Source of the DNA: Candidatus Heimdallarchaeota archaeon
GTDB lineage: Archaea; Asgardarchaeota; Heimdallarchaeia; Heimdallarchaeales; Kariarchaeaceae
Length of the DNA: 64,000 bases
Direction of reading: 5' to 3'
Assembly: GCA_015523565.1 (NCBI GenBank)
Contig: WAKA01000095.1
Coordinates: 18,383-82,382 of the forward strand
The notes under the pieces: generated by a model
The model's database searches: none
Seen by the model: only the letters and a program-made list of their open reading frames with translations
Told to the model about the DNA's origin: nothing
Program-made: the position numbers and the translations under genes
In this document: one piece after another, positions 5,899 through 21,836 of the stretch
Layout of the letters: the number at the start of each line of letters is the position of its first letter
Numbering within the stretch: the stretch's first letter is position 1

Positions 5899-6839
5899 AC
5901 ATCCCATTCTATAGCCATTGTTCCCATTGAAAATCCAAGGCTTGTGCCTGACACCAAGATTTTCGACCCCTTTTTGATCAATCCATGTTCAATCCCATAA
6001 TTCAATTGAAACAGCAAATCATTGGTTCCCATGTGTGGCACTTCTTGAAGGCATTTCAATCCTGTTTTTTCCAATGGGAATTTCATTTGTTCCAACACCA
6101 TCTTGGTCGCTGCATATGTTGAACAACTTAAAGCAATAAAATCAATGTCTTTTGGATATGTTTTCATGGCAAGACATGCCTTTCGCATATGAGTTCCGAA
6201 TGTTTTCACCATGTAAGCTGAAAGCTCCTTTCCTTTCTGTAAATTTGCCAACTGATATTTTGCATCACTGTTCAGAACAAACATGTCTCTAAAATAAGGG
6301 TTTGTGCTTATTTCCACATATCTTATCATGTTTCCGTGATCTGCCTTGGAAAACGCAAATGCCCCAATAGAATCAGCAAAGATACAATTCCCGTCTGAAC
6401 AATTGTTTGTATATTGTGTTGTCATTTGAACTGATCCAACTATGATGTTTTCAATTTCTGGGTGTATGAAATGGGTTCCCGCGATCTGTGCGGCAACTGT
6501 AACCGAAGCACATCCAAGGGAAAAATCAAATCCAAATCCTTCAGCTCCTGGAAAGGCTTCCATTGTGACTGGGCTTGCTCCTTCTGGATGCCTGTCTATG
6601 CCATTATGAATCCCCAAAAACCCTTGAATGTCTTCTCCTGTCAATCCTGCCATTTCTGCTGTTTTCCTGACTTCACTTATGAGTACCTTGTCCCAATCAC
6701 TTTCATTTGAATAGACATAGGTTGCAGGAACAGGATTTCTACCAAGGACTGTTTTTGGAAGATTAAGCTCTTCAACTGCTATGCGCTTATCGCCCTTGTT
6801 GTAACTCCATCCAGAAAGAGAAAGGTTATCGAACTTCAT
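5895..6839 (-). CDS. FabH-like beta-ketoacyl synthase III / thiolase-fold condensing enzyme
   Basis: It has a thiolase-fold layout with an active-site Cys context (FSLGCASVTVAAQIAG). A His/Asn region (VPHMGTNDL) resembles the FabH HQAN motif, and the C-terminus (GTSLGFSMGTMAIEW) resembles the FabH GFGGGLTWG...W motif. It is divergently transcribed from accC. Confidence 0.65.
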   Translation of the reverse strand: MKFDNLSLSGWSYNKGDKRIAVEELNLPKTVLGRNPVPATYVYSNESDWDKVLISEVRKTAEMAGLTGEDIQGFLGIHNGIDRHPEGASPVTMEAFPGAEGFGFDFSLGCASVTVAAQIAGTHFIHPEIENIIVGSVQMTTQYTNNCSDGNCIFADSIGAFAFSKADHGNMIRYVEISTNPYFRDMFVLNSDAKYQLANLQKGKELSAYMVKTFGTHMRKACLAMKTYPKDIDFIALSCSTYAATKMVLEQMKFPLEKTGLKCLQEVPHMGTNDLLFQLNYGIEHGLIKKGSKILVSGTSLGFSMGTMAIEWDV

Positions 6840-8482: not shown

Positions 8483-9076
8483 ATGACTCATCCTGCAATC
8501 AAAAAATCAATGGAAGCACAGGAGAAGCTCAAAAAACAATCCCATGAAAAAGTGGAATTGCCTAAAGATTACCTAAAAGAATTCAAATCGTACGATATTG
8601 TATTTACAGGTCGAAAGTCCACACTTCTTTATAATGAAAAAACTGGTGAAATTATCATAGATGGCCAAATATATAAGCCACAAGTGATTGATTGTGGATC
8701 CCATTATGAAATTAAGGTTCTCGGAAAACATTCTTACAATGTATCTTATAGTGAAGGTCACATTTTCCTTGATGGACGGATGGTTGATTTCTCATTTACC
8801 CCTTCAGTCCCCAAACTCAAAAGAAAAGGAAAACACGGTGCCAATAAAATTGAAATCCGTTCTCCTCTACCTGGTGTGATTGTTGGTCTTCATGTCAAAG
8901 AAGGGGACATTGTCAAGCAGGGGGATAAAATTGCCACATTAGAGGCAATGAAAATGCAAAATGAGCTGGTCACCGACCAAGATGGAATTGTTGAAAAAAT
9001 ACATATCAAAATCAATGACCAAACAGAAACCAACCAAATTATTGCCCTGATCAACACCAAAATTGAAAGCAATTGA
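8483..9076 (+). CDS. accB: Biotin carboxyl carrier protein (biotinyl/lipoyl domain) with an N-terminal extension
   Basis: The C-terminal biotinyl domain has the EAMKMQNE biotinylation motif (Lys within AMKM). A PLPGVIV...VKEGDIVKQGD context precedes it. Confidence 0.85.
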   Translation: MTHPAIKKSMEAQEKLKKQSHEKVELPKDYLKEFKSYDIVFTGRKSTLLYNEKTGEIIIDGQIYKPQVIDCGSHYEIKVLGKHSYNVSYSEGHIFLDGRMVDFSFTPSVPKLKRKGKHGANKIEIRSPLPGVIVGLHVKEGDIVKQGDKIATLEAMKMQNELVTDQDGIVEKIHIKINDQTETNQIIALINTKIESN

Positions 9077-9152: not shown

Positions 9153-10724
9153 ATGGGTAACCCCGGGAATGAGGAAACAACAGAAAAAAAAATCCAAAAA
9201 TTTCTTGAACTCAAAAAACAAGCCATGTTAGGCGGGGGGGAAAAACGAATCCATGCACAACATGAAAAAGGCAAGTATACTGCCCGTGAAAGAATTCAGT
9301 TGCTTATGGATCCAGGCTCTTTTGTAGAACTCGGGGGATTTGTAACGCATCACAAAACCGAATTTGGTCTTGACAAAAAAAAATATCTGGGTGACGGTGT
9401 TGTCACTGGCTACGGTCGTGTCAATGGCAGGCTGGTTTATGTCTATGCACAAGATTTTACGGTATTGGGCGGTTCTCTTGGAAATTCACACGCCAAAAAA
9501 ATTGTAAACATAATGAATCTTGCATTGAAAACTGGTGCTCCACTTGTCGGTTTCAATGATTCTGGTGGTGCCCGTATCCAAGAAGGTGTTGATGCCTTGG
9601 CAGGTTATGGTGAAATTTTCTTTCACAACGTTCTTGCTTCTGGTGTGATTCCCCAAATCTCTGTCATTGTTGGCCCTTCAGCAGGTGGCGCAGTTTATTC
9701 TCCTGCCCTAACTGACTTTATCATCATGACAAAAGAAACATCACATATGTTTGTCACTGGTCCATCTGTCGTAAAAACGGTCACTGGTGAGGACATTTCC
9801 TTTGAAGAACTTGGCGGGTCTACAACCCATACCCTGAAATCAGGAGTCGCACACTTTGACGGAGCAGACGAAAAGGAAAGTATCGAATTGATCAAGAAAA
9901 TTCTAAGCTACCTGCCATCAAACAACTTAGAGGATCCTCCCGTTATCACTCCAACTGATGATAAATCCCGAACCAGTGAAAAACTCAATCGCATCATTCC
10001 AGATGATTCCAAATTGCCATACGATATGAAAGAGGTAATAAAAGAAGTCGTGGATCATGGTGAATTCTTGGAAATCCAAGAAAAATGGGCTAAAAACATC
10101 ATTATAGGTTTTGCACGTTTGAATGGCTATCCTGTTGGAATTGTTGCAAACCAACCTCCTGTGCTTGCAGGCGCTCTTGATAGTGAGGCAAGTATAAAGG
10201 GTGCAAAGTTTGTCAGGTTATGTGATGCATTCAATATTCCCATTATTACCTTTGTTGATGTCCCTGGCTTTCTTCCAGGAGTGGATCAGGAATGGAAGGG
10301 AATTATCAGAAATGGCGCAAAGCTTCTTTATGCATATTGTGAAGCTACAGTTCCAAAAATTGCAGTAGTTACGAGAAAAGCATTTGGTGGCGCATATATT
10401 GTCATGTCTTCAAAACATTTGCGGACTGACGTCAATTTCGCATGGCCAATGGCGGAAATTGCAGTCATGGGATCGGAAGCGGCAGTCAACGTGATTTTCA
10501 GAAGGGATTTGGAAAAAGCTGAAGATCCAATTGCCAAACAAAAGGAAATAGAGGCAGAATACCGAGAAAAGTTCTATAACCCATATTCTGCGGCATCATT
10601 TGGATACATCGACGAGGTAATCCTCCCTTCAGAAACCAGACCAAAACTCATTGAAGCACTCTGGCCCCTACTGACAAAACGTGAAAATCGATTTCCCAAA
10701 AAACATGGTAATATCCCATTATAG
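9153..10724 (+). CDS. Acyl-CoA carboxylase carboxyltransferase subunit (PccB / methylmalonyl-CoA carboxyltransferase 12S family)
   Basis: It shows the fused N- and C-terminal carboxyltransferase architecture at 523 aa. Conserved stretches include DFTVLGGSLG, GARIQEG, GPSAGGAVYSPALTDF, PGFLPG..QEW.GIIRNGAKLLYA and RKAFGGAY. Confidence 0.9.
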   Translation: MGNPGNEETTEKKIQKFLELKKQAMLGGGEKRIHAQHEKGKYTARERIQLLMDPGSFVELGGFVTHHKTEFGLDKKKYLGDGVVTGYGRVNGRLVYVYAQDFTVLGGSLGNSHAKKIVNIMNLALKTGAPLVGFNDSGGARIQEGVDALAGYGEIFFHNVLASGVIPQISVIVGPSAGGAVYSPALTDFIIMTKETSHMFVTGPSVVKTVTGEDISFEELGGSTTHTLKSGVAHFDGADEKESIELIKKILSYLPSNNLEDPPVITPTDDKSRTSEKLNRIIPDDSKLPYDMKEVIKEVVDHGEFLEIQEKWAKNIIIGFARLNGYPVGIVANQPPVLAGALDSEASIKGAKFVRLCDAFNIPIITFVDVPGFLPGVDQEWKGIIRNGAKLLYAYCEATVPKIAVVTRKAFGGAYIVMSSKHLRTDVNFAWPMAEIAVMGSEAAVNVIFRRDLEKAEDPIAKQKEIEAEYREKFYNPYSAASFGYIDEVILPSETRPKLIEALWPLLTKRENRFPKKHGNIPL

Positions 10725-10835: not shown

Positions 10836-13800
10836 GTGATCAATATGAGTGGCAACGACTCCCAAAAAATAAAAATCGAAACTCCTGAAATCTATGATTA
10901 TGAACCTGTTGCAATTGTCGGTATTGGTGCAATCATGCCCGACGCACTTAATGCCAAGGAATTTTGGGAGAATATCAAATCTGGTAAAAACAGTATCACT
11001 GAAGTGCCCAAAGAACGATGGGATCCTGAATTGTTTTACGACCCTGACCCAAGTGTTCCAGACAAGACCTACACTAAAATCGGAGGTTTCATAAAAAATT
11101 TTGAGTTCAATGGAATTCAATTCCGTATTCCACCAAAAATTGCCAGTAAGCTTGACCCAATCCAACAAATGGCTTTGACTGCCGCAAAGGAGGCATTGGA
11201 AGACGCCAATTATGAATCCGATTCATTCAATAAAGAACGAACTGCCGTAATCTTAGGAAATTCTATGGGTGGCGAAATTGTTAGGCAATATACCAGAAGG
11301 GTCTATTTTCCTGAAATTGTCAGAACATTAAAACAAACAAAAGCCTTCAATACACTTGATCAGGATGCACAACAACAATTGTTAATTGAAGTTGAGAAAG
11401 AATATAAATCACATCTGGAAGAAATCACTGAAGATTCCATGCCTGGGGAGCTTGCCAATGTAATTGCCGGTCGTATTGCAAATGTTTTCAATCTTAGGGG
11501 AAAAAACATGACCACTGATGCAGCATGTGCATCCTCTATGGCCGCCATTGACGAGGCCTTCAAAAGCCTTGTGGCACATGAAGTCGATGCAGTCGTCTGT
11601 GGTGGTGCTGACAGGTCAATGGATGTCAGTACATATGTCAAATTTTGTAAAATTGGTGCACTGTCACCTGATGGATCATTTCCTTTCGATGCAAGGGCAA
11701 ATGGCTTTGTCATGGGTGAAGGTGTGGGATTCTTTGTCCTGAAACGTCTTTCAGATGCAATTCGAGATGGCAACAAAATTTATGCATTAATCAGGGGCGT
11801 GGGTTCATCATCTGATGGAAAAGGAAAAGGGATTACTGCCCCAAATCCAATAGGACAGCAACTTGCAATAGAAAGGGCATATAAGCTTGCAGGTATCTCA
11901 CCTGCTGAAGTGACATTAATTGAGGCTCATGGGACATCCACAAAAGTTGGTGACGTTGTTGAAGTCGAAACGTTGCATAAGGTATTCAACAAATACAATC
12001 TACCCAAACAAAGCATTGCATTAGGTTCAATCAAAAGCCAAATCGGACACCTGAAAAGTGCGGCTGGTGCAGCTGCGATCATAAAGACTGCTTTGGCATT
12101 ATATCACAAAATCTTGCCCCCCTCAATAAATTTCGAAACTCCCAATCCAAAAATTGATTGGAGCAATTCCCCCTTTTATGTCAACACACAAGCTAAAGAG
12201 TGGATTCATCCTTCAACAAAGCCACGTAAGGCAGGAGTGTCATCATTTGGTTTTGGAGGAACAAATTTCCACGTGGTAATGGAAGAATATGACCCAAATT
12301 TTGACTATTTTGCCCCCCTAAAGGAAAAGGAAAGGCATAAGGAAACAGAACCATTCGCCTTTCAAGAATTCATTGCCAAAAATAAACATCTCCAAGGAGA
12401 GGCATTTGCAATATCTGGCAAGGATGAAAGCGAATTAAAGGAAAATATTGAATTTTTCTTCAACAGCCTTCCCGAAAATACCTTCTTAGAAGACCCTGAA
12501 ATGCCTTCCCTAACAGAAATTCGAGATCAGGTCAAGTTCAAACCAAATGATGGCTATCGCGTCGCCTTTGCAGCTAATTCTTTGGAACAAATCCATGATA
12601 AAAAAGAAATAATCAACAAGGCAATCTTGACCCCTTCATTCCGAAAAGCGGCGCAGAAAAGAGGCATTTACTTCTCGCAAGATCTCCCAACAGGAAAAAT
12701 TGCATTTGTCTTCCCTGGTCAAGGGTCTCAATATGTAAACATGCTAAAAGACCTTCGTGACAGGTATGAAATAGTTCAGAAAACATTTGAAGAAGCAGAT
12801 ACGGTATTGGAGGAATTTCTAGGAAGAAAACTTTCTGAAATTATTTTTGCTTCCAATCATCAAATAAAGGATAATGAGGAGTTGCTTAAGCAAACCCAAT
12901 TCACCCAACCTGCAATGCTTACTGCCGATATTGCAATATTTAGATTGCTGAAAATGCATGGAATTGTCCCTGAAATGGTTGCAGGACACTCTCTCGGTGA
13001 ATATGCCGCATTGGTCGCTGCAGGTGTACTTTCGTTCCCAGACGCCTTGAAGGCAGTTGCCATAAGGGGAAGGGCTATGGCTAATGTTGATTCAGAAGAC
13101 AAGGGAACAATGGCGTCTGTCTCAGCTCCTTTTGAGAAGGTTCAGGAAGTGCTTAAGACAGTTGATGATTATGTAATTGCCGCTAACCTGAACAGTGTAA
13201 AAAGAATTGTCATTTCAGGGTCAACCCAAGGCGTCAAGAAAGCTATGGAAAAATTCAAGGAACTCGGCATTCAAACTGTTCCCTTATCTGTTTCTGCCGC
13301 TTTCCATACTGATATCGTTGCTCCAGCGGCAAAGGAACTTGCAGAGTTCCTAAAGACAATTGAATTCAAATCACCTCGCATTAAGGTTTCTTCGAATGTT
13401 CTTGGCGATTTTTACCCTGATGACCCTGATGAAATCAGGGCACTTCTTGAAAAACAAGTTGAATCCCCTGTTCATTGGATACAACAATGTGAAACCATGT
13501 ATCAAGCTGGAGCAAGAATTTTCTTTGAAGTGGGTCCAAAAAGGGCTCTTGCTACCTTTGTGCAAGAAAATCTTGAAGGGAAGGACATTGTCTCACAAAT
13601 CACAAATCATCCAAAGACAGGCGACATTTACCAATTCAATGATGCTATTGCATTGGCAAGAGCTTTGGGTATTCAGGTCTCATTTATTGATTTTGAATAT
13701 CCGAAACCAAAAGTCAAGCCAAAGAAAGCTGATCCTCTTCCAAAAATAAAACAGCAAATTACTGCTAAAACAGAATATAATCCAAATGAATTGGCCAATT

Positions 13801-16800
13801 TTGTTAAAACACAACCTTCTCTTCAAAAAATCATTAATGATGAGCTGTTTGAACAGTTTCTTAAACATCAAGGTCAAGCCTTCAATAATTTTCTTTTGGA
13901 GGCATTTGAGGGATTCAAGAAAACAATCAAGGAATCAAATGCCATTGCAGAAAAAGTACAGAGGCTTGGATTAAATCTTGATGACATTGTCATTACAGGA
14001 ACAGGTGTCGGACTTCCTGGAAAATTCAAGGAAATATTTGACGAACGTAATATTGAGCTGATATTGGATGGTTATAATTTCATTGACCCTGTAGGCGACC
14101 GAAAACTCAAACAACAAACCGACAAGAATATCGTAAAACTTGTCAAAAGGGATAGGGGTCAACCTACACTTGAGAAAATCAATAATATTAGGGATGTCAT
14201 AAAGCTTGCCGCCCAAGGAGGAAAATTTGACTTTGTCGAAGAATTCCAACTTGGTGAGAAAATTGTTGAAGCTTACGATAGAACCACAAAACTTGCCATC
14301 GCCGCTGGATTGGAGGCATTAAAGGATGCAGGCATCCCATTGGTCAGAAGCTATACAAAAACAAGCACTGGAAGTTATCTCCCTAGCGATTGGGTATTGC
14401 CAGAAGATCTACGCGAAGATACCGGTGTCATCTTTGCTTCCGCATTTCCAGGATATGACAGCTTAGTTCAGGAAATGACCAAGTTCTATGAAAGCAAATA
14501 TGCAGGAGAGGCATTGGATGTTCTAAGAAAAGTTTATGGCGAAATTGTCAGGAAATTGGGAAACAAGGATGAGTATAGGGAATTTGTCGAATTTCTGGAA
14601 CAGAATCTCAACGAACTTGAAGAACATAAGTCGGTCTACCAGTTCAACAGAAAATTCCTTTTCAAGATCCTCTCGATGGGTCATTCTCAATTTGCACAAC
14701 TTATCAAGGCGTATGGTCCCAACACACAGGTCAATGCCGCATGTGCATCCACAACACAAGCAGTTGGAATTGCCAATGATTGGATAAGATCTGGTAGATG
14801 CAAAAGAGTCATCCTCATTGGTGCAGATGATGCTTCAGGTGAAAACCTATTTGAATGGATAGGTTCTGGATTCTTGGCTTCAGGTGCAGCAACAACAAAA
14901 GAAAAGGTATCTGAAGCAGCCTTGCCATTTGACCGAAGAAGACATGGAATGATCATTGGAATGGGGGCAGTTGGAATTGTAATTGAAACAGCAGAAGAAG
15001 CAAAACGACGAGGCATTAAACCCATCGTCAAAATACTTGGGACATATTATTCCAATTCTGCATACCATGGAACAAGACTCGATGTCAATCATATTTCATA
15101 TGAATTGGAAAAATTCTTCAAAAAAATAAACGCGACCACTGGTCTGACTCCTGAACAGATTGCAAACTCTGCAATGTTCATGAGTCACGAGACATATACT
15201 CCTGCTAGAGGTGGGAGTGCCGCCGCTGAAATACAATCGCTCCGTCATGTCTTTGGTGAAAATGCTTCAAAGATCATCATTGCAAATACAAAAGGATTTA
15301 CTGGTCATCCAATGGGCGCAGGTATTGAAGACGCAATAGCAATCAAGGCACTGCAATACGGGAAAATTCCTCCAATTGCCAATTTCAAAGAACCTGATGA
15401 GACATTGGGAAACCTTTCCCTTTCCAAAGGTGGAAAATACAATGTCAAATATGCAATCCGTTTGGCCGCAGGCTTTGGATCACAGCTTGCATTCGCCCTT
15501 TATGAAAAGGCTGCGGGAATGGATAGGGAAACTCCTCAATATGAGCAATGGCTTAAATCAATTGGTGGCTCAAAGGCAGACCTAATTAAAGTTGGAAAGA
15601 CATTAAGATTAAAAGACAACGGACCACCAAAGAAATCAATCCAAAAGACCAAAATTGTCAAAAAAGTCAAATCCCCTACTCGACCCATTCCCGCAACAGT
15701 TGCAAAACAAAAATCAACACACGCAAATGACATCTTGGAATGGATCGCAAATGAAACTGGCTATCCAAAAGACCTTCTTGATGATTTTGTAAATCCTGTA
15801 AAGGATCTAGGAATAAATGCTCAGAAGCTCGCTTCTGTTGTAGGACAAACAAATGTTGATAATCTGACAATTGCAGATCTCAAAAAACTTTCTTTCAAAG
15901 ACACTTCACCCCAAAAATCCACCCCTATATCCACGAAACCTGACTCTCCAAAAGATGTGAAAGTTCAAAAACGAACAATGACATCTCAAGATGGTGTTAT
16001 CAAAGAAATTGTGAAAATTGTCGCTGAAAAGACGGGCTATCCTGAAGAAATGCTTGATCCCAATCTTGATATGGAGGCGGATTTGGGTATAGATACCGTT
16101 AAACAGGCTGAACTCTTCGGTTTGATACGGGAACATTACAATATTCCTTTGATTGAAGACCTTGATCTTTCTGAATATAACACCCTTGCAAAAATTGCGG
16201 ATTTTGTCAATGAGCATTCGTCATTTGAATCTAAAGCTACTGTTTCATCATCTTCCTCTTCCGCAAACATTGGCATTTCACAAGATCAAGATGAAATCAT
16301 TAAGACAATTACGTCTTTGATTGCCGAACAAACTGGTTATCCCAACGAAATGCTTGAACCCGACTTGGACATGGAAGCAGATCTGGGAATTGATACTGTC
16401 AAACAAGCAGAGTTGATTGGGATGATCCGAGATTATTACAACATCCCATTGATTGAAGACCTCGACATATCTGAATACAATACAATCCGTAGGATTGCTA
16501 ACTTTGTCATGGAATATGCACCCGCCTCCGACAAAAAACAGGTGGTAGTACATAAAGAGGCAAGAGATCAAGATAGGATTCTGAAAACTATCACATCAAT
16601 TATTGCAGAAAAAACTGGTTATCCTGAAGAGATGCTTGAACCTGACTTGGATATGGAGGCAGACTTGGGAATTGACACCGTGAAACAGGCAGAACTAATC
16701 GGTGTCATCAGGGAACACTACAATATCCCATTGATTGAAGACCTTGATATATCTGAATACAATACGATCCGAAAAATTAGTAAATTTGTCATTGAAAACA

Positions 16801-19800
16801 CAAAACCTACAACAGAAATAGAAAGAAAAGAAATTGAAGATGATAAAACTCCAATACTGCAAACGATTACAAAAATAATTGCAGAAAAAACTGGTTATCC
16901 TGAAGAGATGCTTGAACCTGACTTGGACATGGAAGCAGACTTGGGAATTGACACGGTGAAACAGGCAGAACTGATCGGTGTCATTAGAGAGCATTACAAC
17001 ATCCCATTGATTGAAGACCTTGACATATCTGAATACAATACCATTTCCAGAGTGGCGGATTTCGTCATGCAATATAAGCCACAAGAATCTAAGCCGCAAG
17101 AATCATCTCAAAAAGAAAAATCCAAGGAAAGGCAACAAGAAACCCAAAAGGAAAACGAAAAATCCAATGGTGAAATGCTGATCATCCAAAAACTGAAAGA
17201 AAAAGTTTCTGAACTGACTGGTTTCCCTGCAGAATTGGTTGAGGAAAATATCGACTTGGAAAAAGAAATGGGTATTGACAATGCACAAATATTACAGTTG
17301 ACAAAATCCCTCCTCGATGATTTAAATCTACCAGACATGAAAGTCACTGCAACAAGCATCAAGGAAATAGCACAAGAAATTTCAAAACTTTCGCCCTCTT
17401 CCCAAAAAACTTATCGGTACGTAATTGAGATGCAGGAATCACCTAGAACCCTTGATCCAAAGAACATTGATTTCATTGTCCTTACTGAAGAGAAATTGGA
17501 AAATGTCAAAACAGTGGATCTCGATGGTCTAGAACAAACTGAATGCAATCACCTATTGATATTGAATCCCAAACCTGATTTCAATATCTCCAAACTTTTT
17601 GAAATTCTGAAAGGGAAAATTGATGCACTAAAATCATTTGGCGTTGCAGAAACAATTTCAAGACCAAAATCCATAAACGATATCTCTCCAATTACAGGGG
17701 CAATTGGTGGCATGGCAAAAACCCTGATGCATGAGTTCAATATCAATGCAAAAATAATTGCCGCAAATGATCTCCGTGTCATATTGAATGAATTTACTGA
17801 TCAAAATCCCGATATTGAAGTCGTTTTTGATGGATCAAAACGCCTAGTGCCTGCATTGAAAGAAATGGATCTCCCTGTTCCCACTGACATCTCCCTTCCT
17901 AAAGGAAGCAATTTTATAGTCTCTGGAGGCGCTCAAGGAATTACCTTTGAATGTATCATGCCAATTGTAAAATCATCAGAAAACGTTCGGGTGATCCTTA
18001 TTGGTCGAACTGAAATTAAGGAAAATGCATCGGAAATTGCACAAATGTCTGATGAACAACTCAAAGAAAAGAAAAATGAACTTCTTGCACAATTAAAGGA
18101 AAAACATGAAAAAGTGACTCCAGTAATGCTGAACAAAGAATGGTCAAAAATCATAAAATCTGCCATTGTCTACCAGAATATTGAGAAATTGAAATCAATG
18201 GGTGCAGAAGTTGTATATATTCAATCAGACATTACTGCTCCCTCTCTCCCCGATAAAATTAAATCCAACATTATTCCTGACAAACCTGTTTTCATTGTCC
18301 ATGGTGCTGGTGTAGAAATATCAAAAGCAACAAAATCCAAACTCACCTCTGAATTTGAATTGGTTTACAACATAAAGGTTGTAGGCATTGAAAACCTCTT
18401 GAAATCAGTTAAACAAGAGAATGTCAAAAGAATCATTTCATTCACTTCTGTTGCTGGTCGTTTTGGAAATGCGACACAAATTGACTATTCTGCCGCAAAT
18501 GAATATCTTGCAAAACGAATGGCAATGCTAAAACGCCAAGGGGTCTCTGCAACCTCTATTGATTGGTCTGCATGGGCAGAGATTGGAATGGCAACAAAAG
18601 ACACGACAATGAAGGTATTACAGGCTGCGGGTGTAACCCCGATTCCTCTGAAAGACGGTGTTGCCCGTTTCCTTTCTGAATTCTTCAATTCCACCGAAGA
18701 CGAAGTCGTAATAAGCGGCAAACTGGGAATGTTGGCAAAAGGCACTAAATTCGTAAAAAATGACAAAATACCTCTTCCAGCAACAGAAAACAAGAAAAAA
18801 CTATCGTCCCAGAAGCAAAGAAAAGAAGAAGGTGCAAGGAAACAGGAAGCACAAGCTAAATCTGAATCAACCCAAAAGATGGTGACGATAAAAGAACCTC
18901 AAACTGAAAAAACAAAAGAAATAGCGAAAACAAGAGCACCTAACCAAATCAAATCACAATTACATAAGGAACAACCTGTCACAAAAAAAGAACAGAAGAC
19001 ATTCCCCATTCTTAATCCTGAATTTCCTATGATGCATGGAACAATAACAATCAACAAAATTATTGCGGGTAAAAAAGTGTTGAACTTAGAACAGGATTTG
19101 TATCTTGATGACCATCGTATTGACGGAAAAGCTGTTCTCCCCGGTGTTATGGGTCTTGAGTTTTTCACTGAGTTTGTAAACTATCATGGTGGCAAGGTAA
19201 CAGGGATGAGATCTGTTGTTTTTTCATCCCCTGTCAAACTTCCAAAAGACAAGCCCCTTGAAATTTTTGTCATTCCAGAAAAAGTTACTGGTTTGAATTC
19301 AATCAAACTTACTCTCAAATCTAAATTCATTGGTCCAGATGGCAAACAACTAGGGGATCTCCGACCCCATTTTGTTGCAGAAATTATTGAAGGAGAATTA
19401 GCTCCTGGTTATCCCTTCCTTCCCGCAACACAATCAAAATGGTTCATTAAGGAGAACTTGGTGATTCCTAAGGAAAAGATCTATGAAGTCTTTTTCCATG
19501 GACCTTCATTCCAAGTCCTTGACGGAATCATAAATTTGGGTGCCAACAGTATTTCTGCCGTATACAATGAACCTAATGAACCCCTGTTCCCTGACAAGAA
19601 TGCATCTGTGCACCTTGCACCTAGACTTATTGAGGCATGTTTCCAAACAGCAGGCATGTATGATTTACTCATCAATAAAACCATGTCCCTTCCAAATGGC
19701 ATTACAAAAATTCAACTCTACCAAGGATTTGAGAATGCAAAATATATCCATGCCACCCAAACAAGATCAAAGAACAATATTTCCCATTATAACGTCTTTG

Positions 19801-20567
19801 CATTGGACAAAGACCTAAACGTTGTTCTTGAACTGATTAACTATGAAATGATCCACACTGGCACAACAGAAATACCTTTCAATACACCTGAAACCGTTGA
19901 TGAACCTGTTGTTGCAGAATTGATGCATCACGTGGGTCAAATCACTCCGTTGGCAGTTTCAATCTCAACAGAAGCAATGGAACACATCAATGAAGAATTC
20001 CTCGACGCATATTTACTACCCTCTGAAAAAGTAATCTATGCTCGATTCAAAGTGCCAAAAAGGAAAATGGAGTGGCTCGCTGGAACTATCGCCGCAAAAA
20101 AGGCAATTTCTCTAACATTCAATGTCCCTGAAACTGAAGTGGAAATAATTAAAAACAAAAACGGGAAACCTGGTGGAATCTTTGAAGGAATTGAATATCC
20201 TGTCACCAAAACCCATTCAAATGGTGTTGCCATTGCATTGTCACACCCTGATGGTGGTGTAGGCATTGATATTGAAAAAATAGAGCCAAGAGATCCTTCA
20301 TTAATTAAAACCGCCTTCACCAATGACGAAATCAAGCGGTTCCAGATTAAGCCTGATAAACATAAGCTCATCACCCAACTCTGGTCTATAAAAGAAGCAA
20401 GCCTAAAGGCAATAGGAACTGGTTTGAAAACATCACTGAAAGACACAATCATCAAAAAATCGAGCAAAAGCAAAAGATATACCGTCCAAATCAAAAAGAA
20501 ATTGTTGTCAATAACATCTGTCACAACTGATGATTGGGTTGTCACTTTGGCTATACTGAATCAATGA
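10836..20567 (+). CDS. Type I PfaA/PKS-like iterative megasynthase: KS-AT-KS-(carrier-like x6)-KR-DH-PPTase, 3243 aa
   Basis: It is a single uninterrupted ORF. Catalytic motifs for each domain are listed in the sub-features below. The tandem carrier domains and overall layout resemble PUFA / secondary-lipid synthases (PfaA-like). Confidence 0.9.
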   Translation: MINMSGNDSQKIKIETPEIYDYEPVAIVGIGAIMPDALNAKEFWENIKSGKNSITEVPKERWDPELFYDPDPSVPDKTYTKIGGFIKNFEFNGIQFRIPPKIASKLDPIQQMALTAAKEALEDANYESDSFNKERTAVILGNSMGGEIVRQYTRRVYFPEIVRTLKQTKAFNTLDQDAQQQLLIEVEKEYKSHLEEITEDSMPGELANVIAGRIANVFNLRGKNMTTDAACASSMAAIDEAFKSLVAHEVDAVVCGGADRSMDVSTYVKFCKIGALSPDGSFPFDARANGFVMGEGVGFFVLKRLSDAIRDGNKIYALIRGVGSSSDGKGKGITAPNPIGQQLAIERAYKLAGISPAEVTLIEAHGTSTKVGDVVEVETLHKVFNKYNLPKQSIALGSIKSQIGHLKSAAGAAAIIKTALALYHKILPPSINFETPNPKIDWSNSPFYVNTQAKEWIHPSTKPRKAGVSSFGFGGTNFHVVMEEYDPNFDYFAPLKEKERHKETEPFAFQEFIAKNKHLQGEAFAISGKDESELKENIEFFFNSLPENTFLEDPEMPSLTEIRDQVKFKPNDGYRVAFAANSLEQIHDKKEIINKAILTPSFRKAAQKRGIYFSQDLPTGKIAFVFPGQGSQYVNMLKDLRDRYEIVQKTFEEADTVLEEFLGRKLSEIIFASNHQIKDNEELLKQTQFTQPAMLTADIAIFRLLKMHGIVPEMVAGHSLGEYAALVAAGVLSFPDALKAVAIRGRAMANVDSEDKGTMASVSAPFEKVQEVLKTVDDYVIAANLNSVKRIVISGSTQGVKKAMEKFKELGIQTVPLSVSAAFHTDIVAPAAKELAEFLKTIEFKSPRIKVSSNVLGDFYPDDPDEIRALLEKQVESPVHWIQQCETMYQAGARIFFEVGPKRALATFVQENLEGKDIVSQITNHPKTGDIYQFNDAIALARALGIQVSFIDFEYPKPKVKPKKADPLPKIKQQITAKTEYNPNELANFVKTQPSLQKIINDELFEQFLKHQGQAFNNFLLEAFEGFKKTIKESNAIAEKVQRLGLNLDDIVITGTGVGLPGKFKEIFDERNIELILDGYNFIDPVGDRKLKQQTDKNIVKLVKRDRGQPTLEKINNIRDVIKLAAQGGKFDFVEEFQLGEKIVEAYDRTTKLAIAAGLEALKDAGIPLVRSYTKTSTGSYLPSDWVLPEDLREDTGVIFASAFPGYDSLVQEMTKFYESKYAGEALDVLRKVYGEIVRKLGNKDEYREFVEFLEQNLNELEEHKSVYQFNRKFLFKILSMGHSQFAQLIKAYGPNTQVNAACASTTQAVGIANDWIRSGRCKRVILIGADDASGENLFEWIGSGFLASGAATTKEKVSEAALPFDRRRHGMIIGMGAVGIVIETAEEAKRRGIKPIVKILGTYYSNSAYHGTRLDVNHISYELEKFFKKINATTGLTPEQIANSAMFMSHETYTPARGGSAAAEIQSLRHVFGENASKIIIANTKGFTGHPMGAGIEDAIAIKALQYGKIPPIANFKEPDETLGNLSLSKGGKYNVKYAIRLAAGFGSQLAFALYEKAAGMDRETPQYEQWLKSIGGSKADLIKVGKTLRLKDNGPPKKSIQKTKIVKKVKSPTRPIPATVAKQKSTHANDILEWIANETGYPKDLLDDFVNPVKDLGINAQKLASVVGQTNVDNLTIADLKKLSFKDTSPQKSTPISTKPDSPKDVKVQKRTMTSQDGVIKEIVKIVAEKTGYPEEMLDPNLDMEADLGIDTVKQAELFGLIREHYNIPLIEDLDLSEYNTLAKIADFVNEHSSFESKATVSSSSSSANIGISQDQDEIIKTITSLIAEQTGYPNEMLEPDLDMEADLGIDTVKQAELIGMIRDYYNIPLIEDLDISEYNTIRRIANFVMEYAPASDKKQVVVHKEARDQDRILKTITSIIAEKTGYPEEMLEPDLDMEADLGIDTVKQAELIGVIREHYNIPLIEDLDISEYNTIRKISKFVIENTKPTTEIERKEIEDDKTPILQTITKIIAEKTGYPEEMLEPDLDMEADLGIDTVKQAELIGVIREHYNIPLIEDLDISEYNTISRVADFVMQYKPQESKPQESSQKEKSKERQQETQKENEKSNGEMLIIQKLKEKVSELTGFPAELVEENIDLEKEMGIDNAQILQLTKSLLDDLNLPDMKVTATSIKEIAQEISKLSPSSQKTYRYVIEMQESPRTLDPKNIDFIVLTEEKLENVKTVDLDGLEQTECNHLLILNPKPDFNISKLFEILKGKIDALKSFGVAETISRPKSINDISPITGAIGGMAKTLMHEFNINAKIIAANDLRVILNEFTDQNPDIEVVFDGSKRLVPALKEMDLPVPTDISLPKGSNFIVSGGAQGITFECIMPIVKSSENVRVILIGRTEIKENASEIAQMSDEQLKEKKNELLAQLKEKHEKVTPVMLNKEWSKIIKSAIVYQNIEKLKSMGAEVVYIQSDITAPSLPDKIKSNIIPDKPVFIVHGAGVEISKATKSKLTSEFELVYNIKVVGIENLLKSVKQENVKRIISFTSVAGRFGNATQIDYSAANEYLAKRMAMLKRQGVSATSIDWSAWAEIGMATKDTTMKVLQAAGVTPIPLKDGVARFLSEFFNSTEDEVVISGKLGMLAKGTKFVKNDKIPLPATENKKKLSSQKQRKEEGARKQEAQAKSESTQKMVTIKEPQTEKTKEIAKTRAPNQIKSQLHKEQPVTKKEQKTFPILNPEFPMMHGTITINKIIAGKKVLNLEQDLYLDDHRIDGKAVLPGVMGLEFFTEFVNYHGGKVTGMRSVVFSSPVKLPKDKPLEIFVIPEKVTGLNSIKLTLKSKFIGPDGKQLGDLRPHFVAEIIEGELAPGYPFLPATQSKWFIKENLVIPKEKIYEVFFHGPSFQVLDGIINLGANSISAVYNEPNEPLFPDKNASVHLAPRLIEACFQTAGMYDLLINKTMSLPNGITKIQLYQGFENAKYIHATQTRSKNNISHYNVFALDKDLNVVLELINYEMIHTGTTEIPFNTPETVDEPVVAELMHHVGQITPLAVSISTEAMEHINEEFLDAYLLPSEKVIYARFKVPKRKMEWLAGTIAAKKAISLTFNVPETEVEIIKNKNGKPGGIFEGIEYPVTKTHSNGVAIALSHPDGGVGIDIEKIEPRDPSLIKTAFTNDEIKRFQIKPDKHKLITQLWSIKEASLKAIGTGLKTSLKDTIIKKSSKSKRYTVQIKKKLLSITSVTTDDWVVTLAILNQ
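10900..12290 (+). other. Domain: ketosynthase 1 (KS, Cys-His-His type)
   Basis: Motifs are EPVAIVGIG, the active-site TDAACASS (Cys codon 11526-11528), EAHGTSTKVGD and GSIKSQIGHLKSAAG. Confidence 0.9.
12695..13560 (+). other. Domain: acyltransferase (malonyl-type AT)
   Basis: Motifs are FVFPGQGSQY and GHSLGEYAAL (Ser codon 12990-12992). The specificity region SVSAAFHTDIV (xAFH) resembles the malonyl-specific HAFH/GAFH motif rather than YASH. Confidence 0.9.
13975..15515 (+). other. Domain: second ketosynthase-like domain (retains Cys and both His, so not an obvious chain-length factor)
   Basis: Motifs are VITGTGVGLPG and VNAACASTTQA (Cys codon 14742-14744). The His regions are SHETYTPARGG and NTKGFTGHPMGAG. 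An insert of about 80 aa follows the N-terminal strand. Confidence 0.75.
15721..15897 (+). other. Domain: degenerate carrier-protein-like domain (Ala at the attachment position)
   Basis: The sequence ILEWIANETGYPKDLLDDFVNPVKDLGINAQKLASVV aligns with the repeats downstream. The motif reads GINAQ instead of GIDS/T. Confidence 0.4.
15990..17075 (+). repeat. Four tandem in-frame carrier-protein (PP-binding-like) domain repeats, period about 276-300 bp
   Basis: Four copies have the consensus ..I(A)E(K/Q)TGYP(E/N)EMLEPDLDMEADLGIDTVKQAELIG.IREHYNIPLIEDLDISEYNT... Copies 3 and 4 are near-identical at nucleotide level over more than 150 nt (compare 16602-16770 with 16878-17046). Confidence 0.85.
17175..17391 (+). 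other. Domain: degenerate carrier-protein-like domain (Asn at the attachment position)
   Basis: The sequence is LIIQKLKEKVSELTGFPAELVEENIDLEKEMGIDNAQILQLTKSLLDDLNL. It has the same helix pattern as the repeats, but the motif reads GIDNA. Confidence 0.4.
17400..18740 (+). other. Domain: ketoreductase (structural pseudo-KR subdomain plus catalytic SDR subdomain)
   Basis: The Rossmann motif is NFIVSGGAQGITFE (about 17905-17950). A catalytic Tyr context is IDYSAANEYLAK (about 18481-18515). About 160 aa of N-terminal structural half precede it, as in PKS/PfaA KRs. Confidence 0.8.
19000..19860 (+). other. Domain: PKS-type (double hot-dog) dehydratase
   Basis: The HxxxGxxxxP motif is LDDHRIDGKAVLPGV (His codon 19113-19115). 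The second-half motif is HLAPRLIEACFQ, which resembles HPxLLDxxxQ with Glu in place of Asp. Confidence 0.75.
20030..20564 (+). other. Domain: C-terminal Sfp-type 4'-phosphopantetheinyl transferase
   Basis: The ordered PPTase motifs are KRKMEWLAGTIAAKKAI, KNGKPGG, KTHSNGVAIALS, GVGIDIEKI, FTNDEIKRF and LWSIKEASLKAIGTGL. Confidence 0.7.
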
Positions 20568-20589
20568 CAAGTTAACGAAGAAAATATTA

Positions 20590-21402
20590 ATGGCATATGA
20601 AATTCAAATTATGATTGATTTAACAGGCAAACGAGCAATCGTTTTTGGTGTCGCCTCAGAAACAAGCATTGCTTGGGCAATTTCAAAATGGCTTGCCAAA
20701 GCCGGTGCAAAAATCACCCTTTCATATCAAAAACGCTTTAGATCCCGTATTTACTCATTGACCAAAGATGTTGACTTCATCGAGGGGATGCATGAGTGCG
20801 ATGTTGCTTATGACGATCAGGTAAGGGATTTCTTTGCAAACTTGGACGGGAAATTTGATATGGTCGTACATGCAATCGGCTATGCTCCTGCAACCGCATT
20901 GAGCAAACCTATTATCTACACTTCCGAAGAGGATTTCAACACTGCAATGGTGATCTCTGCATATTCTCTGCAAAGAATTGTCAGGCATGCCATGAGGGTG
21001 TTGAACCCAAACAGTGCCTTTCTTACGCTGACATATTTGGGTGCTGTCCGTGTGGTTCCTGGATACCGAATTATGGGCGTTGCCAAAGCCGCTTTAGAGG
21101 CATTTGTCAGGGAGCTTTCTGTCAACATAGGTCTTGCTGGTCATCGTATCAATGCAATTTCCTCAGGACCAATTAAAACTCTTGCAGCAAGTCATGTCCC
21201 TGGATTTGACAACATCCTTGAGTATATGCAACATGCATCCCCGCTAAGACGAAACGTCGTACAGGATGATGTTGCCAAAACGGCTCTGTTTTTACTGAGT
21301 GATTTGAGCTCAGGCATAACTGGCCAAACAATCTATGTTGATACAGGCTTTTCCAGCGTTGCTCTTCCTGCTGATATTGACAAGCTCAAATTTGAGGATT
21401 AA
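20590..21402 (+). CDS. fabI: Enoyl-[acyl-carrier-protein] reductase, FabI type (SDR)
   Basis: FabI signatures are GKRAIVFGVASETSIAWAISK, the Tyr/Lys region LTYLGAVRVVPGYRIMGVAKAALEA, INAISSGPIKTLAAS and ITGQTIYVDTG. It starts 22 nt after the megasynthase stop. Confidence 0.9.
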   Translation: MAYEIQIMIDLTGKRAIVFGVASETSIAWAISKWLAKAGAKITLSYQKRFRSRIYSLTKDVDFIEGMHECDVAYDDQVRDFFANLDGKFDMVVHAIGYAPATALSKPIIYTSEEDFNTAMVISAYSLQRIVRHAMRVLNPNSAFLTLTYLGAVRVVPGYRIMGVAKAALEAFVRELSVNIGLAGHRINAISSGPIKTLAASHVPGFDNILEYMQHASPLRRNVVQDDVAKTALFLLSDLSSGITGQTIYVDTGFSSVALPADIDKLKFED

Positions 21403-21836
21403 ATGTCAATTATGAAATGAGCCTCCCACCCATTGTCAACTTGCTTGACATAAAAATCATGCATTGTAATGGCTTTAATGTCATTTCCAATCTTATCATT
21501 CTCGGGATCAAATAAGTCACCAACAAATTTCCCCTTAACTGCATATCCCTCGTTTTCCTTATCAACGTGAAGTTCAACATTCTTGACAAAAAATAGCTCC
21601 GCATCTTTCAAATAAACCATCTCCTCAAGAAGCGTGTGCAACAGCAAATCCAATGATTTCTCCTCGAACTGAATGGCCTTCTGCATTAATTCATCCAGAT
21701 TACTTGGGTCTGTCATCAAATTTGCAATGGAAAGGCATGCATCCCTAAAAAGCTCATTAAGGTCTTTCCCCGTTACCTTAATGCCAATATCTGCAATTGC
21801 CTCTTCTTCTAGATATTCCCATGGCATAACCTGCAT
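21399..21836 (-). CDS. Archease (RtcB activator / tRNA-modification chaperone)
   Basis: The N-terminus (EEEAIADIGIKVTGKDLNELFRDA) and C-terminus (IKAITMHDFYVKQVDNGWEAHFIIDI) match the archease pattern (..ADI....G..leelf and vKavTyh.l.v....w.a.vvlDi). It is about 140 aa. Confidence 0.8.
   Translation of the reverse strand: MQVMPWEYLEEEAIADIGIKVTGKDLNELFRDACLSIANLMTDPSNLDELMQKAIQFEEKSLDLLLHTLLEEMVYLKDAELFFVKNVELHVDKENEGYAVKGKFVGDLFDPENDKIGNDIKAITMHDFYVKQVDNGWEAHFIIDI

What the first reader, a model, noticed from the sequence alone, without database searches (positions are those of the whole stretch)
10836..20567. Unusual megasynthase architecture: a second catalytically intact KS between AT and the carrier array, and a fused Sfp-type PPTase
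Classical PfaA is KS-AT-ACPn-KR-DH, with the KS/CLF pair and the PPTase on separate proteins. Here a second KS-like domain sits between AT and the carrier domains. It retains the Cys (VNAACAST) and both His regions (SHETYT, GHPMGAG), so it does not look like a decarboxylase-only CLF. A complete Sfp-type PPTase forms the C-terminus (GIDIE, WSIKEASLKA). The ER is a trans-acting FabI rather than a PfaD/FabK-type enzyme. I do not recognise this combination as a described synthase type.
Basis: partly seen in the sequence, partly recalled or inferred. Interest (0 to 1): 0.7.

Follow-up and report, generated by a model that had tools for sequence, protein, structure and literature searches.

The report
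Known lipid megasynthase in Asgard archaeon
The giant gene is real, but its domain order belongs to a widespread fatty-acid/polyketide megasynthase family first described in 2011; what stands out is that it sits in a Heimdall-type (Asgard) archaeal genome and that its carrier domains have threonine where carrier proteins normally have the cofactor-bearing serine.

Summary
ORF 10836-20567 encodes a 3243-aa protein with the order KS1-AT-KS2-ACP array-KR-DH-PPTase. KS2 keeps Cys1303/His1451/Lys1486/His1491, the tail is a two-lobe Sfp-type PPTase, and a FabI gene follows.

Shulse & Allen (2011) described the 'Type R' secondary-lipid synthase as KS-MAT-'CLF'-ACP(3-6)-KR plus a PPTase. An exhaustive search with KS2 found 608 cluster representatives at E<=1e-30. 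Of the best 145, 94 carry KS-AT-KS2 and 30 carry the full order with a fused PPTase.

Three things are worth keeping:
- **Host.** The contig is archaeal and Heimdall-like (RtcB, archease, RadA, Ras GTPase). The synthase falls in an archaeal clade that is usually linked to acetyl-CoA carboxylase genes. The whole module lies between rtcB and archease, which are adjacent in Heimdallarchaeota LC_2.
- **KS2.** The domain published as 'CLF' has an invariant catalytic set and a FabF fold.
- **Carrier site.** The canonical phosphopantetheine site is Thr in 98% of 336 family carrier domains, and no conserved Ser exists elsewhere in the domain.

The product is unknown. I infer a reduced fatty acyl chain.

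The parts
5895..6839 (-). Divergent FabH-like (KAS III-like) protein, 314 aa. A conserved neighbour of the module.
   Evidence: ACP_syn_III_C at E=8e-9. In the PDB FabH alignment the Cys is conserved, but the His of 'PHQAN' is not. It is 55% identical to a gene upstream of the synthase in Heimdall locus L015, and a homologue sits directly after rtcB in L017.
7003..8481 (+). Biotin carboxylase (AccC-type).
   Evidence: CPSase_L_D2, Biotin_carb_N and Biotin_carb_C; NF006367 at 639 bits, above its 597 cut-off.
8483..9076 (+). Biotin carboxyl carrier protein.
   Evidence: Biotin_lipoyl at E=1.6e-16.
9153..10724 (+). Acyl-CoA carboxyltransferase (PccB/MmdA-type). The inferred supplier of malonyl-CoA.
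   Evidence: Carboxyl_trans at 657 bits. The same BC-BCCP-CT genes lie next to the synthase in archaeal loci L011, L016 and L017; L014 has all three split on both sides, and L013 shows BCCP and BC.
10836..20567 (+). Megasynthase, 3243 aa: KS1-AT-KS2-[ACP-like, 4 x ACP, ACP-like]-KR-DH-PPTase.
   Evidence: TIGR02813 (PfaA subfamily) scores 1131 bits against a 1010 cut-off.
10893..12335 (+). KS1, a PfaA/PKS-type ketosynthase with Cys231, His365 and His405.
   Evidence: PF00109/PF02801/PF16197; motifs DAACASS, EAHGTST and SQIGHLK; 30% identity to FabF over the full length.
12678..13610 (+). Acyltransferase with GHSLGE (Ser719) and AAFH, the signature usually read as malonyl-specific.
   Evidence: Acyl_transf_1 at 147 bits; FabD model at 244 bits; motifs. 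The substrate call rests on general knowledge.
13986..15575 (+). KS2, a second catalytically intact ketosynthase (Cys1303, His1451, Lys1486, His1491) with a FabF-like fold and a helical hairpin insertion at nt 14454-14624.
   Evidence: residues invariant in 121/121 homologues; AF2 pLDDT 90.8; FabF hits, TM 0.83-0.89 normalised to target; 25% identity to KS1.
15984..17075 (+). Four tandem carrier domains with EADLGIDTVKQAEL. Thr1754, Thr1854, Thr1948 and Thr2040 (codons at 16095, 16395, 16677, 16953) occupy the canonical phosphopantetheinyl-Ser position.
   Evidence: five PDB ACP alignments place the Thr on the DS(L/I) Ser; codons ACC/ACT/ACC/ACG; 276-bp tandem repeat.
15732..15854 (+). Degenerate ACP-like segment before the array (GINA; no hydroxyl residue at the attachment site).
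17181..17339 (+). Degenerate ACP-like segment after the array (GIDN).
17853..18635 (+). Ketoreductase domain.
   Evidence: PF08659 at E=1.5e-25; DYSAAN Tyr2551.
19023..19925 (+). PKS-type dehydratase with the HxxxGxxxxP motif at aa 2760-2769. It is not a FabA-type DH/isomerase.
   Evidence: PKS_DH_N and PS-DH; motif.
19953..20564 (+). Fused C-terminal Sfp-type 4'-phosphopantetheinyl transferase.
   Evidence: ACPS at E=1.5e-16; HetI/AcpT models; aligns to Sfp 15-167 and AASDHPPT 50-205. A fused PPTase is present in 39 of 87 family representatives that have KR-DH.
20590..21402 (+). FabI-type enoyl-ACP reductase. The inferred trans-acting ER.
   Evidence: Identical gene order (synthase-FabI-archease) on three other contigs, L008-L010. 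No FabI within 8 kb in L011 or L013-L016.
4444..5898 (+). RtcB. Left boundary marker of the module and the taxonomic marker.
   Evidence: RtcB at 564 bits. The nearest named relatives are Kariarchaeaceae and Heimdallarchaeota LC_2 at 71-77% identity. In LC_2, rtcB and archease are adjacent.
21399..21836 (-). Archease. Right boundary marker of the module.
   Evidence: PF01951 at 114 bits.

Best explanation
The gene encodes a member of the already described, widespread 'Type R' family of PfaA-like iterative FAS/PKS megasynthases (secondary-lipid synthases). Here it lies in the genome of a Heimdall-type Asgard archaeon, inside a compact module: FabH-like protein, acetyl-CoA carboxylase (BC, BCCP, CT), megasynthase, FabI. 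The module sits between rtcB and archease.

Proposed mechanism:
1. The carboxylase makes malonyl-CoA.
2. The fused Sfp-type PPTase converts the four tandem carrier domains to their holo form in cis. In this family the attachment residue is Thr rather than Ser.
3. The AT loads malonyl units.
4. Two catalytically competent ketosynthases share the condensation steps. KS1 is PfaA/PKS-like and KS2 is FabF-like. They most likely differ in chain-length range or in priming versus elongation, as the two KS domains of PUFA synthases do.
5. KR and the PKS-type DH process each beta-keto group, and FabI reduces the enoyl intermediate in trans.

The result would be a saturated or mostly reduced long acyl chain. 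There is no TE domain, so release goes by an unidentified route.

Shown here: domain content, catalytic residues, family size, archaeal host, conserved carboxylase linkage, and the Thr site. Inferred: substrate, division of labour between KS1 and KS2, use of FabI, and the product.
For: Architecture and motifs.

Published Type R description (KS-MAT-CLF-ACP(3-6)-KR plus PPTase, an ACC gene in the Koribacter cluster, product unknown): PMC3098273.

Family size and identical architecture. Split copies of the same order on frameshifted long-read contigs.

KS2 competence: C/H/K/H invariant in 121/121; a full FabF-like fold at pLDDT 90.8.

Archaeal host:
- RtcB nearest to Kariarchaeaceae and Heimdallarchaeota LC_2.
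- Archease, a Ras-family GTPase and RadA on the same contig.
- KS2 best named hits are Heimdallarchaeota and Ca. Kariarchaeum.
- Related synthases lie on contigs with archaeal/eukaryotic-type ribosomal proteins (L18Ae, L31e, S19e) or Arf GTPases and adjacent ACC genes.
- In an NJ tree these sequences form one clade apart from the bacterial ones.

Insertion between rtcB and archease.

No FabA-type DH and no pfaB/C/D in the window.
Against: - No member of this family has a known product, as far as my ten literature searches could show. 'Fatty acyl chain' is therefore an inference from domain content.
- FabI is adjacent only in the window's own lineage and is absent within 8 kb in five related loci. 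Full reduction may not be a family property.
- No release enzyme was identified.
- A carrier domain with Thr at the attachment site is not known to be modified by characterised PPTases (my own knowledge). Activity of the array is assumed from its conservation, not shown.
- Type R membership rests on architecture and on homologues from the same phyla. I made no direct comparison with the named type genomes.
- The NJ tree has no support values.
Confidence: 0.75

Rival explanations
1. One reading: this is a new, undescribed type of megasynthase, defined by a second KS between AT and the carriers plus a fused PPTase.
For: The domain order differs from canonical PfaA. My literature searches found only one paper that writes this order down.
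Against: That paper describes exactly this order as Type R. There are 608 cluster representatives at E<=1e-30, and 30 of the best 145 are identical in full order, fused PPTase included.
Confidence: 0.03
2. KS2 is a chain-length-factor-like, non-condensing partner of KS1, as the published 'CLF' label implies. It would act structurally or as a decarboxylase only.
For: Shulse & Allen label the domain CLF. KS2 is very divergent: 25% identity to KS1, an unusual HETYTPARGGS motif, and a helical insertion. The actinorhodin KS/CLF structure is among the structural matches.
Against: The defining feature of CLFs is loss of the active-site Cys. Here Cys, both His and the Lys are invariant in 121/121 sequences and align to the FabF catalytic residues. 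The best structural matches are FabF enzymes.
Confidence: 0.15
3. It is the PfaA subunit of a genuine PUFA synthase whose partners (PfaB/C/D) lie elsewhere in the genome.
For: The TIGR02813 PfaA subfamily model scores 1131 bits, above its 1010 cut-off. Tandem ACPs are a Pfa hallmark.
Against: No pfaB/C/D-like or FabA-type DH gene appears in 64 kb of window or within the called genes of six related archaeal loci. The conserved partner is ACC instead. KS2 scores only 16 bits on the PfaA model.
Confidence: 0.05
4. It works like an enediyne/polyene iterative PKS (KS-AT-ACP-KR-DH-PPTase) and releases a conjugated polyene or a hydroxylated chain without ER action. The adjacent FabI would be incidental.
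For: The KR-DH-PPTase C-terminal arrangement is the same as in enediyne PKSs (own knowledge). There is no ER domain in cis. FabI is absent next to the synthase in five related loci. The published Type R description lists no ER.
Against: FabI follows the synthase by 22 bp on the same strand and is kept in that position on three further contigs. No hot-dog thioesterase or enediyne cassette genes are in the window. The multiple ACPs and the second KS are unlike PksE. The linkage to ACC fits bulk lipid supply.
Confidence: 0.15
5. The locus is bacterial DNA mis-assembled or mis-binned into an archaeal genome.
For: The closest characterised relatives of every enzyme in the module are bacterial. G+C of 4-22 kb (0.38-0.41) is somewhat above 22-54 kb (0.32-0.40).
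Against: One contiguous 64-kb sequence also carries RtcB (Heimdall-like), archease, a Ras-family GTPase and RadA. The same junctions (synthase-FabI-archease, and rtcB-FabH-like-ACC-synthase) recur on independent assemblies. Related synthases sit beside archaeal/eukaryotic-type ribosomal protein genes on contigs of 0.37-1.1 Mb. G+C of 54-64 kb is also 0.37-0.40.
Confidence: 0.02

Closest known systems
'Type R' secondary-lipid synthase (Shulse & Allen 2011, PLoS One 6:e20146; Koribacter, Solibacter, Elusimicrobium, Roseiflexus)
   Same: One pfaA homologue with KS-MAT-second KS ('CLF')-tandem ACPs-KR and an associated PPTase. ACC genes occur in or next to some clusters. There is no pfaB/C/D. The product is unknown. 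Homologues at about 50% identity in KS2 come from the same phyla.
   Different: The PPTase is fused here rather than a downstream gene, though my census finds it fused in 39 of 87 family representatives. The host is archaeal. FabI and a FabH-like gene are in the module. The 'CLF' is catalytically intact, and the carriers have Thr at the attachment site; the paper mentions neither point.
PfaA of bacterial PUFA synthases (pfaABCDE)
   Same: KS-MAT-tandem ACP-KR-PKS-type DH backbone. It passes the TIGR02813 cut-off.
   Different: It has an extra KS2 and a fused PPTase. It has no PfaB/PfaC/PfaD partners and no FabA-type DH. The ER candidate is FabI, not the FabK-like PfaD. The carriers read GIDT instead of GIDS.
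Enediyne iterative PKS (PksE, e.g. SgcE/CalE8): KS-AT-ACP-KR-DH-PPTase (own knowledge)
   Same: An iterative type I enzyme with a C-terminal Sfp-type PPTase fused after the DH, so it activates itself.
   Different: PksE has a single ACP, no second KS and no ACC or FabI partners. No enediyne cassette or TE is present here.
KS-CLF pairs of type II PKSs and PfaC
   Same: Two thiolase-fold KS-like domains serve one iterative system. The actinorhodin KS/CLF is among the structural matches.
   Different: CLFs lack the catalytic Cys. KS2 keeps Cys/His/Lys/His invariantly, is separated from KS1 by the AT, and resembles FabF most closely.
ACP-independent archaeal fatty acid synthesis (thiolase/DUF35-based; bioRxiv 10.1101/2024.07.05.601840)
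   Same: Both are proposed routes to fatty acids in an archaeon.
   Different: That pathway uses CoA esters and no ACP. [quoted passage not shown] The present module is ACP- and PPTase-dependent and of bacterial type.

Membership tests
Type R secondary-lipid synthase (Shulse & Allen 2011) | A single pfaA homologue with the order KS-MAT-second KS ('CLF')-tandem ACPs-KR. | tested here: met
   Pfam and phmmer domain maps; description in PMC3098273.
Type R secondary-lipid synthase (Shulse & Allen 2011) | A PPTase encoded with the synthase (a downstream gene in the type genomes). | tested here: met
   Present as a C-terminal fusion. It is fused in 39 of 87 family representatives that have KR-DH.
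Type R secondary-lipid synthase (Shulse & Allen 2011) | No pfaB, pfaC or pfaD partner genes. | tested here: met
   None found among the window's larger ORFs that were scanned.
Type R secondary-lipid synthase (Shulse & Allen 2011) | The KS groups phylogenetically with the Koribacter, Solibacter, Elusimicrobium and Roseiflexus proteins. | tested here: inconclusive
   Sequences of the named type genomes could not be fetched. KS2 homologues at 46-55% identity come from Acidobacteria, Chloroflexi and Elusimicrobia MAGs.
PUFA synthase PfaA (TIGR02813) | Scores above the curated cut-off of the subfamily model. | tested here: met
   1131 bits against 1010. The best matched stretch covers aa 24-956 (KS-AT); three further stretches were reported without coordinates.
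PUFA synthase PfaA (TIGR02813) | Works with PfaC (KS-CLF-two FabA-type DH), PfaD (FabK-like ER) and PfaB. | tested here: not met
   No such genes in the window or in the called genes of six related archaeal loci. The rest of the genome was not available.
Chain length factor (CLF) | A KS-like domain that has lost the active-site Cys. | tested here: not met
   Cys1303 is aligned to the FabF Cys and is invariant in 121/121 homologues.
Elongating ketosynthase (FabF/KAS II-like) | A thiolase fold with the Cys-His-His triad and the Lys. | tested here: met
   AF2 model with pLDDT 90.8; FabF structures match at TM 0.83-0.89, normalised to target. Activity was not tested.
Sfp-type (group II) PPTase | About 200-230 aa with two pseudo-symmetric lobes and the motifs GKP, xHS, G(I/V)D(I/V)E and W(S/T)xKE(A/S)xxK. 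| tested here: met
   Aligns to Sfp 15-167 and AASDHPPT 50-205, with all four motifs present.
Acyl carrier protein / PP-binding domain | A conserved Ser at the N-terminus of helix II (D-S-L/I) as the phosphopantetheine attachment site. | tested here: not met
   All four canonical repeats have Thr at that position. Across the family it is Thr in 98% and Ser in 2% of 336 domains. The fold and the rest of the motif match PP-binding (145 bits over five stretches on the 580-aa segment).
Enediyne PKS (PksE) | KS-AT-single ACP-KR-DH-PPTase with a partner hot-dog thioesterase and the enediyne cassette. | tested here: not met
   This protein has a second KS and four ACPs. No thioesterase or cassette genes are in the window.
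FabI enoyl-ACP reductase | An SDR of the adh_short_C2 type with the Tyr-x6-Lys dyad. | tested here: met
   234 bits on PF13561. FabI equivalog models reach 244 bits, below their 391 cut-off. YRIMGVAK is at aa 159-166.

The most novel reading that the evidence does not exclude
In this whole megasynthase family the phosphopantetheine arm is attached to a threonine, by a co-evolved PPTase that is fused to or encoded next to the synthase. That chemistry would make the system orthogonal to host PPTases and so easy to transfer as a self-contained unit. In Heimdallarchaeia the unit, together with acetyl-CoA carboxylase and FabI, would give an Asgard lineage ACP-dependent synthesis of fatty acyl chains of the bacterial/eukaryotic kind.
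Probability: 0.3. Interest if true: 0.8.

Novelty: new member of a known kind. Interest (0 to 1): 0.5.

Why it matters
The architecture itself does not matter, because it has been catalogued since 2011 and is common. Three other things do.

1. **An ACP-dependent synthase in Asgard archaea.** Archaea are generally held to lack FAS I/II, ACP and ACP synthase (stated in bioRxiv 10.1101/2024.07.05.601840). How the archaeal ancestor of eukaryotes came to use fatty-acid lipids is an open question. A conserved, self-activating, ACP-dependent synthase linked to acetyl-CoA carboxylase in Heimdall-type archaea is a concrete, testable candidate for fatty acyl synthesis in the closest archaeal relatives of eukaryotes. 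[quoted passage not shown]

2. **A Thr attachment site.** Thr is near-universal at the carrier attachment site in this family. If the domains are functional, this would be an unreported form of the phosphopantetheine modification. It would also explain why the family always carries its own PPTase.

3. **An orphan family.** The family is very widespread and, as far as my searches show, still has no known product.

Tried and rejected
- **Genome-contig scan with the whole protein.** It returned only five bacterial loci, and the one I opened (L003) is an ordinary type II FAS locus with FabD and FabF.
- **The search for homologous proteins with KS2.** It listed only proteins under 920 aa, which at first suggested stand-alone KS2 proteins. 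The two long-contig cases I inspected (L001, L002) are the same megasynthase split into consecutive ORFs; I read this as frameshift errors in long-read assemblies. Other short hits are partial proteins on short contigs. The exhaustive representative search then recovered full-length proteins.
- **Exact look-up of the megasynthase.** It failed, probably because the called start differs. FabI, the carboxyltransferase and the biotin carboxylase were found instead.
- **Literature (all ten searches used).** I found nothing on the product of Type R, nothing on Thr-linked phosphopantetheine, and nothing on Asgard megasynthases beyond the Shark Bay note. The 'DST motif' literature concerns the residue after the Ser, not the Ser itself. 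The PPTase review I tried to open is not held.
- **HGT island signal from base composition.** It was inconclusive.
- **tRNA and Rfam scans of the window.** Both were empty.
- **A KS1/KS2 pair model.** It could not be built, because the predictor takes one chain of at most 1200 aa and accepts only native sequences.
Full report
**1.

The window has one uninterrupted ORF at 10836-20567 on the + strand, 3243 aa long. Pfam and NCBIfam give this order:
- KS1, aa 23-496
- AT, aa 624-920
- a second KS, about aa 1051-1580
- PP-binding repeats
- KR, aa 2360-2582
- PKS-type DH, aa 2747-3006
- ACPS-family PPTase, aa 3141-3238

Against Listeria FabF (PDB 3o04), KS2 aligns Cys1303, His1451, Lys1486 and His1491 with the FabF Cys, His, Lys and His. 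BLASTP against KS1 and against a FabF from locus L003 gives the same register.

The C-terminal 223 aa align to Sfp residues 15-167 and to human AASDHPPT residues 50-205. That covers both lobes, with the motifs GKP, (T)HS, GIDIE and WSIKEASLKA. So it is a complete Sfp-type domain rather than an AcpS-type half.

The next gene (20590-21402) is a FabI with the Y159-x6-K166 dyad. None of the window's larger ORFs that I scanned (all of at least 150 aa and most of 120-150 aa) resembles PfaB, PfaC, PfaD/FabK or FabA.

**2. The architecture is not new**

Shulse & Allen (2011, PMC3098273) defined 20 types of pfa-like 'secondary lipid' clusters. [quoted passage not shown] It occurs in Acidobacteria, Elusimicrobia and Chloroflexi, has an ACC gene inside the Koribacter cluster, and has no known product.

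A word-indexed search with KS2 returned 1363 hits from exactly such phyla, plus Actinomycetota, Myxococcota and several archaeal MAGs. An exhaustive HMMER search of 1.84 billion cluster representatives found 608 at E<=1e-30, and the best 150 all scored above 467 bits.

I mapped the window's seven domain types onto the 145 new representatives:

| Feature | Count |
|---|---|
| KS1-AT-KS2 in one chain | 94 of 145 |
| ...and also KR-DH | 69 |
| Full order including a fused PPTase | 30 |
| Fused PPTase, among those with KR-DH | 39 of 87 |

**3. What KS2 is**

The published 'CLF' label does not fit. Cys, His, Lys and His are invariant in 121 of 121 homologues, within a distinctive conserved pattern (GPNT..N.ACAST; SHETYTPARGGSA.AE; NTKG.TGH).

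KS2 is only 25% identical to KS1. Its best curated family is FabF at 148 bits, while the PfaA model gives it 16 bits. An AlphaFold2 model built on 40 homologues is confident (pLDDT 90.8, pTM 0.91). It matches FabF structures over their whole length, with TM 0.83-0.89 normalised to the target. A helical hairpin insertion of about 57 residues sits at aa 1207-1263.

I conclude that KS2 is a second, competent condensing enzyme. By analogy with the two KS domains of PUFA synthases, which handle different chain lengths (own knowledge), I infer a division of labour. This was not tested.

**4. The host is an Asgard archaeon, and the module is conserved there**

Evidence from the window itself:
- RtcB (4444-5898) has a continuous series of relatives from 92% down to 68% identity. 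The named ones are Ca. Kariarchaeaceae, Heimdallarchaeota LC_2 and 'Heimdallarchaeota archaeon'. Other lineages start at 64% or lower.
- The same contig carries archease, a Ras-family small GTPase at 192 bits (36084-36599) and RadA (62600-63550).
- The best named KS2 hits are Heimdallarchaeota and Ca. Kariarchaeum pelagius.

Evidence from related loci. The top full-length representatives lie on archaeal contigs:

| Locus | Contig | Archaeal markers nearby | ACC genes |
|---|---|---|---|
| L011 | 1.13 Mb | Arf GTPase | BC-BCCP-CT directly upstream |
| L014 | 371 kb | r-protein L18Ae, prefoldin | CT upstream, BCCP and BC downstream |
| L015 | Heimdallarchaeota MAG GCA_026702845.1 | Arf GTPase | none within the 8-kb upstream flank; a homologue of the window's FabH-like gene lies upstream |
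| L016 | 644 kb | r-proteins L31e and S19e | BC-BCCP-CT upstream |

An NJ tree of KS2 puts the window and these sequences (55-70% identity) in one clade apart from the bacterial ones. The tree has no support values.

In the window and in L017 (RtcB 82% identical), the order is rtcB, FabH-like, BC, BCCP, CT, synthase. The window continues with FabI and then archease. In Heimdallarchaeota LC_2, rtcB and archease are neighbours, separated only by one small ORF. So the 15.5-kb module (5895-21402) sits exactly between two genes that are adjacent elsewhere, which marks it as a unit. Three further assemblies share the synthase-FabI-archease junction, so a chimeric assembly is unlikely.

Proteins at least 90% identical to the window's FabI and aldehyde dehydrogenase carry the NCBI label 'Euryarchaeota/Methanobacteriota archaeon'. 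Given the RtcB evidence, I take that as a loose label.

**5. An unexpected feature: threonine at the carrier attachment site**

All four canonical carrier repeats read EADLGIDTVKQAEL. In five independent alignments to solved ACPs, the Thr falls on the Ser of the D-S-(L/I) motif.

The four Thr codons differ (ACC, ACT, ACC, ACG), so this is not a repeat-copy or sequencing artefact.

Across the family:
- 119 representatives have only Thr-type carriers, 3 have only Ser-type, and 2 are mixed.
- In 336 well-scoring domains the site is Thr in 98% and Ser in 2%. No other column is Ser-rich.
- The motif is the same in named bacterial members: Caldilineales, Anaerolineae, Acidobacteria, Myxococcota and Elusimicrobiota.
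- One Heimdall relative (P0278, locus L015) has Ser throughout. This shows the position tolerates only hydroxyl residues, as an attachment site would.

The two flanking ACP-like segments have Ala and Asn at the site, so they cannot carry the arm.

If these synthases work, the arm must be on Thr. My searches found no report of this. From my own knowledge, Ser-to-Thr ACP mutants are not substrates of AcpS. A dedicated, co-inherited PPTase would then be a requirement, which would explain the constant association. This is inference.

**6. Most likely mechanism**

1. ACC supplies malonyl-CoA.
2. The AT (GHSLGE ... AAFH, the malonyl-type signature by general knowledge) loads the holo-carriers.
3. 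KS1 and KS2 condense.
4. KR (Tyr2551) and the PKS-type DH (HxxxGxxxxP at aa 2760-2769) process the beta-carbon.
5. FabI reduces the enoyl intermediate in trans.

No FabA-type isomerase is present, so a PUFA is unlikely. No TE is present, so release is unexplained. The conserved FabH-like protein keeps its Cys but lacks the canonical His, so it could be a primer or a transferase.

FabI is adjacent only in this lineage. That leaves room for the rival that the family makes unsaturated or hydroxylated chains.

**7. Verdict**

The finding as written (a novel architecture) is refuted. The locus is a new, archaeal member of a known but uncharacterised family. Its interest lies in the host and in the Thr-type carriers.

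Noticed in passing
window 16095-16097, 16395-16397, 16677-16679, 16953-16955 (Thr1754/1854/1948/2040 of the megasynthase): All four canonical carrier domains have Thr at the position of the phosphopantetheinyl Ser (EADLGIDTVKQAEL). The same holds for 98% of 336 carrier domains across the family, bacterial members included, and there is no conserved Ser elsewhere in the domain. I found no report of this.
   Followed up: yes
window 4444-5898 (rtcB) and 21399-21836 (archease, - strand); locus L018 10001-12274; locus L017 10001-21443: The whole lipid module (FabH-like, ACC, synthase, FabI) sits exactly between rtcB and archease. These two genes are direct neighbours in Heimdallarchaeota LC_2, so the module looks like an inserted unit. 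In L017 the FabH-like gene has the opposite orientation to the window's copy.
   Followed up: partly
window 36084-36599: A Ras-family small GTPase (PF00071 at 192 bits), a typical Asgard 'eukaryotic signature' protein. It is followed by four large ORFs (36602-42044) with no Pfam match.
   Followed up: no
window 15732-15854 and 17181-17339: Two degenerate ACP-like segments flank the four-repeat carrier array. They have Ala (GINA) and Asn (GIDN) at the attachment position, so they presumably play a structural role.
   Followed up: partly
window 5895-6839 (- strand); L015 6-884; L017 11496-12446: The FabH-like protein is conserved next to the synthase in three Heimdall-type lineages (55% identity to the L015 copy). 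It keeps the active-site Cys but not the His of the FabH 'PHQAN' motif. Its role (priming or acyl transfer/release) is unknown.
   Followed up: partly
window 14454-14624 (aa 1207-1263): KS2 carries a helical hairpin insertion of about 57 residues that is absent from FabF. It was modelled at lower confidence (pLDDT about 78-85). It could be a docking or dimerisation element.
   Followed up: partly
window 20590-21402 and 32031-33572: Proteins at least 90% identical to the window's FabI and aldehyde dehydrogenase are labelled 'Euryarchaeota/Methanobacteriota archaeon' in NCBI (RMG21539.1, RMG32535.1). RtcB, KS2 and the Ras GTPase point instead to Heimdallarchaeia, so the label is probably loose.
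   Followed up: partly
window 2022-3815, 42553-43506, 45565-47052: The contig carries a methyl-accepting chemotaxis protein, a response regulator and a histidine kinase. An MCP gene also lies just past archease in Heimdallarchaeota LC_2 (L018 12658-14667).
   Followed up: no
loci L001 and L002: On some long-read metagenome contigs the same megasynthase appears as a run of 5-7 consecutive short ORFs. I read this as frameshift errors. It makes protein databases look as if stand-alone KS2 proteins exist.
   Followed up: yes
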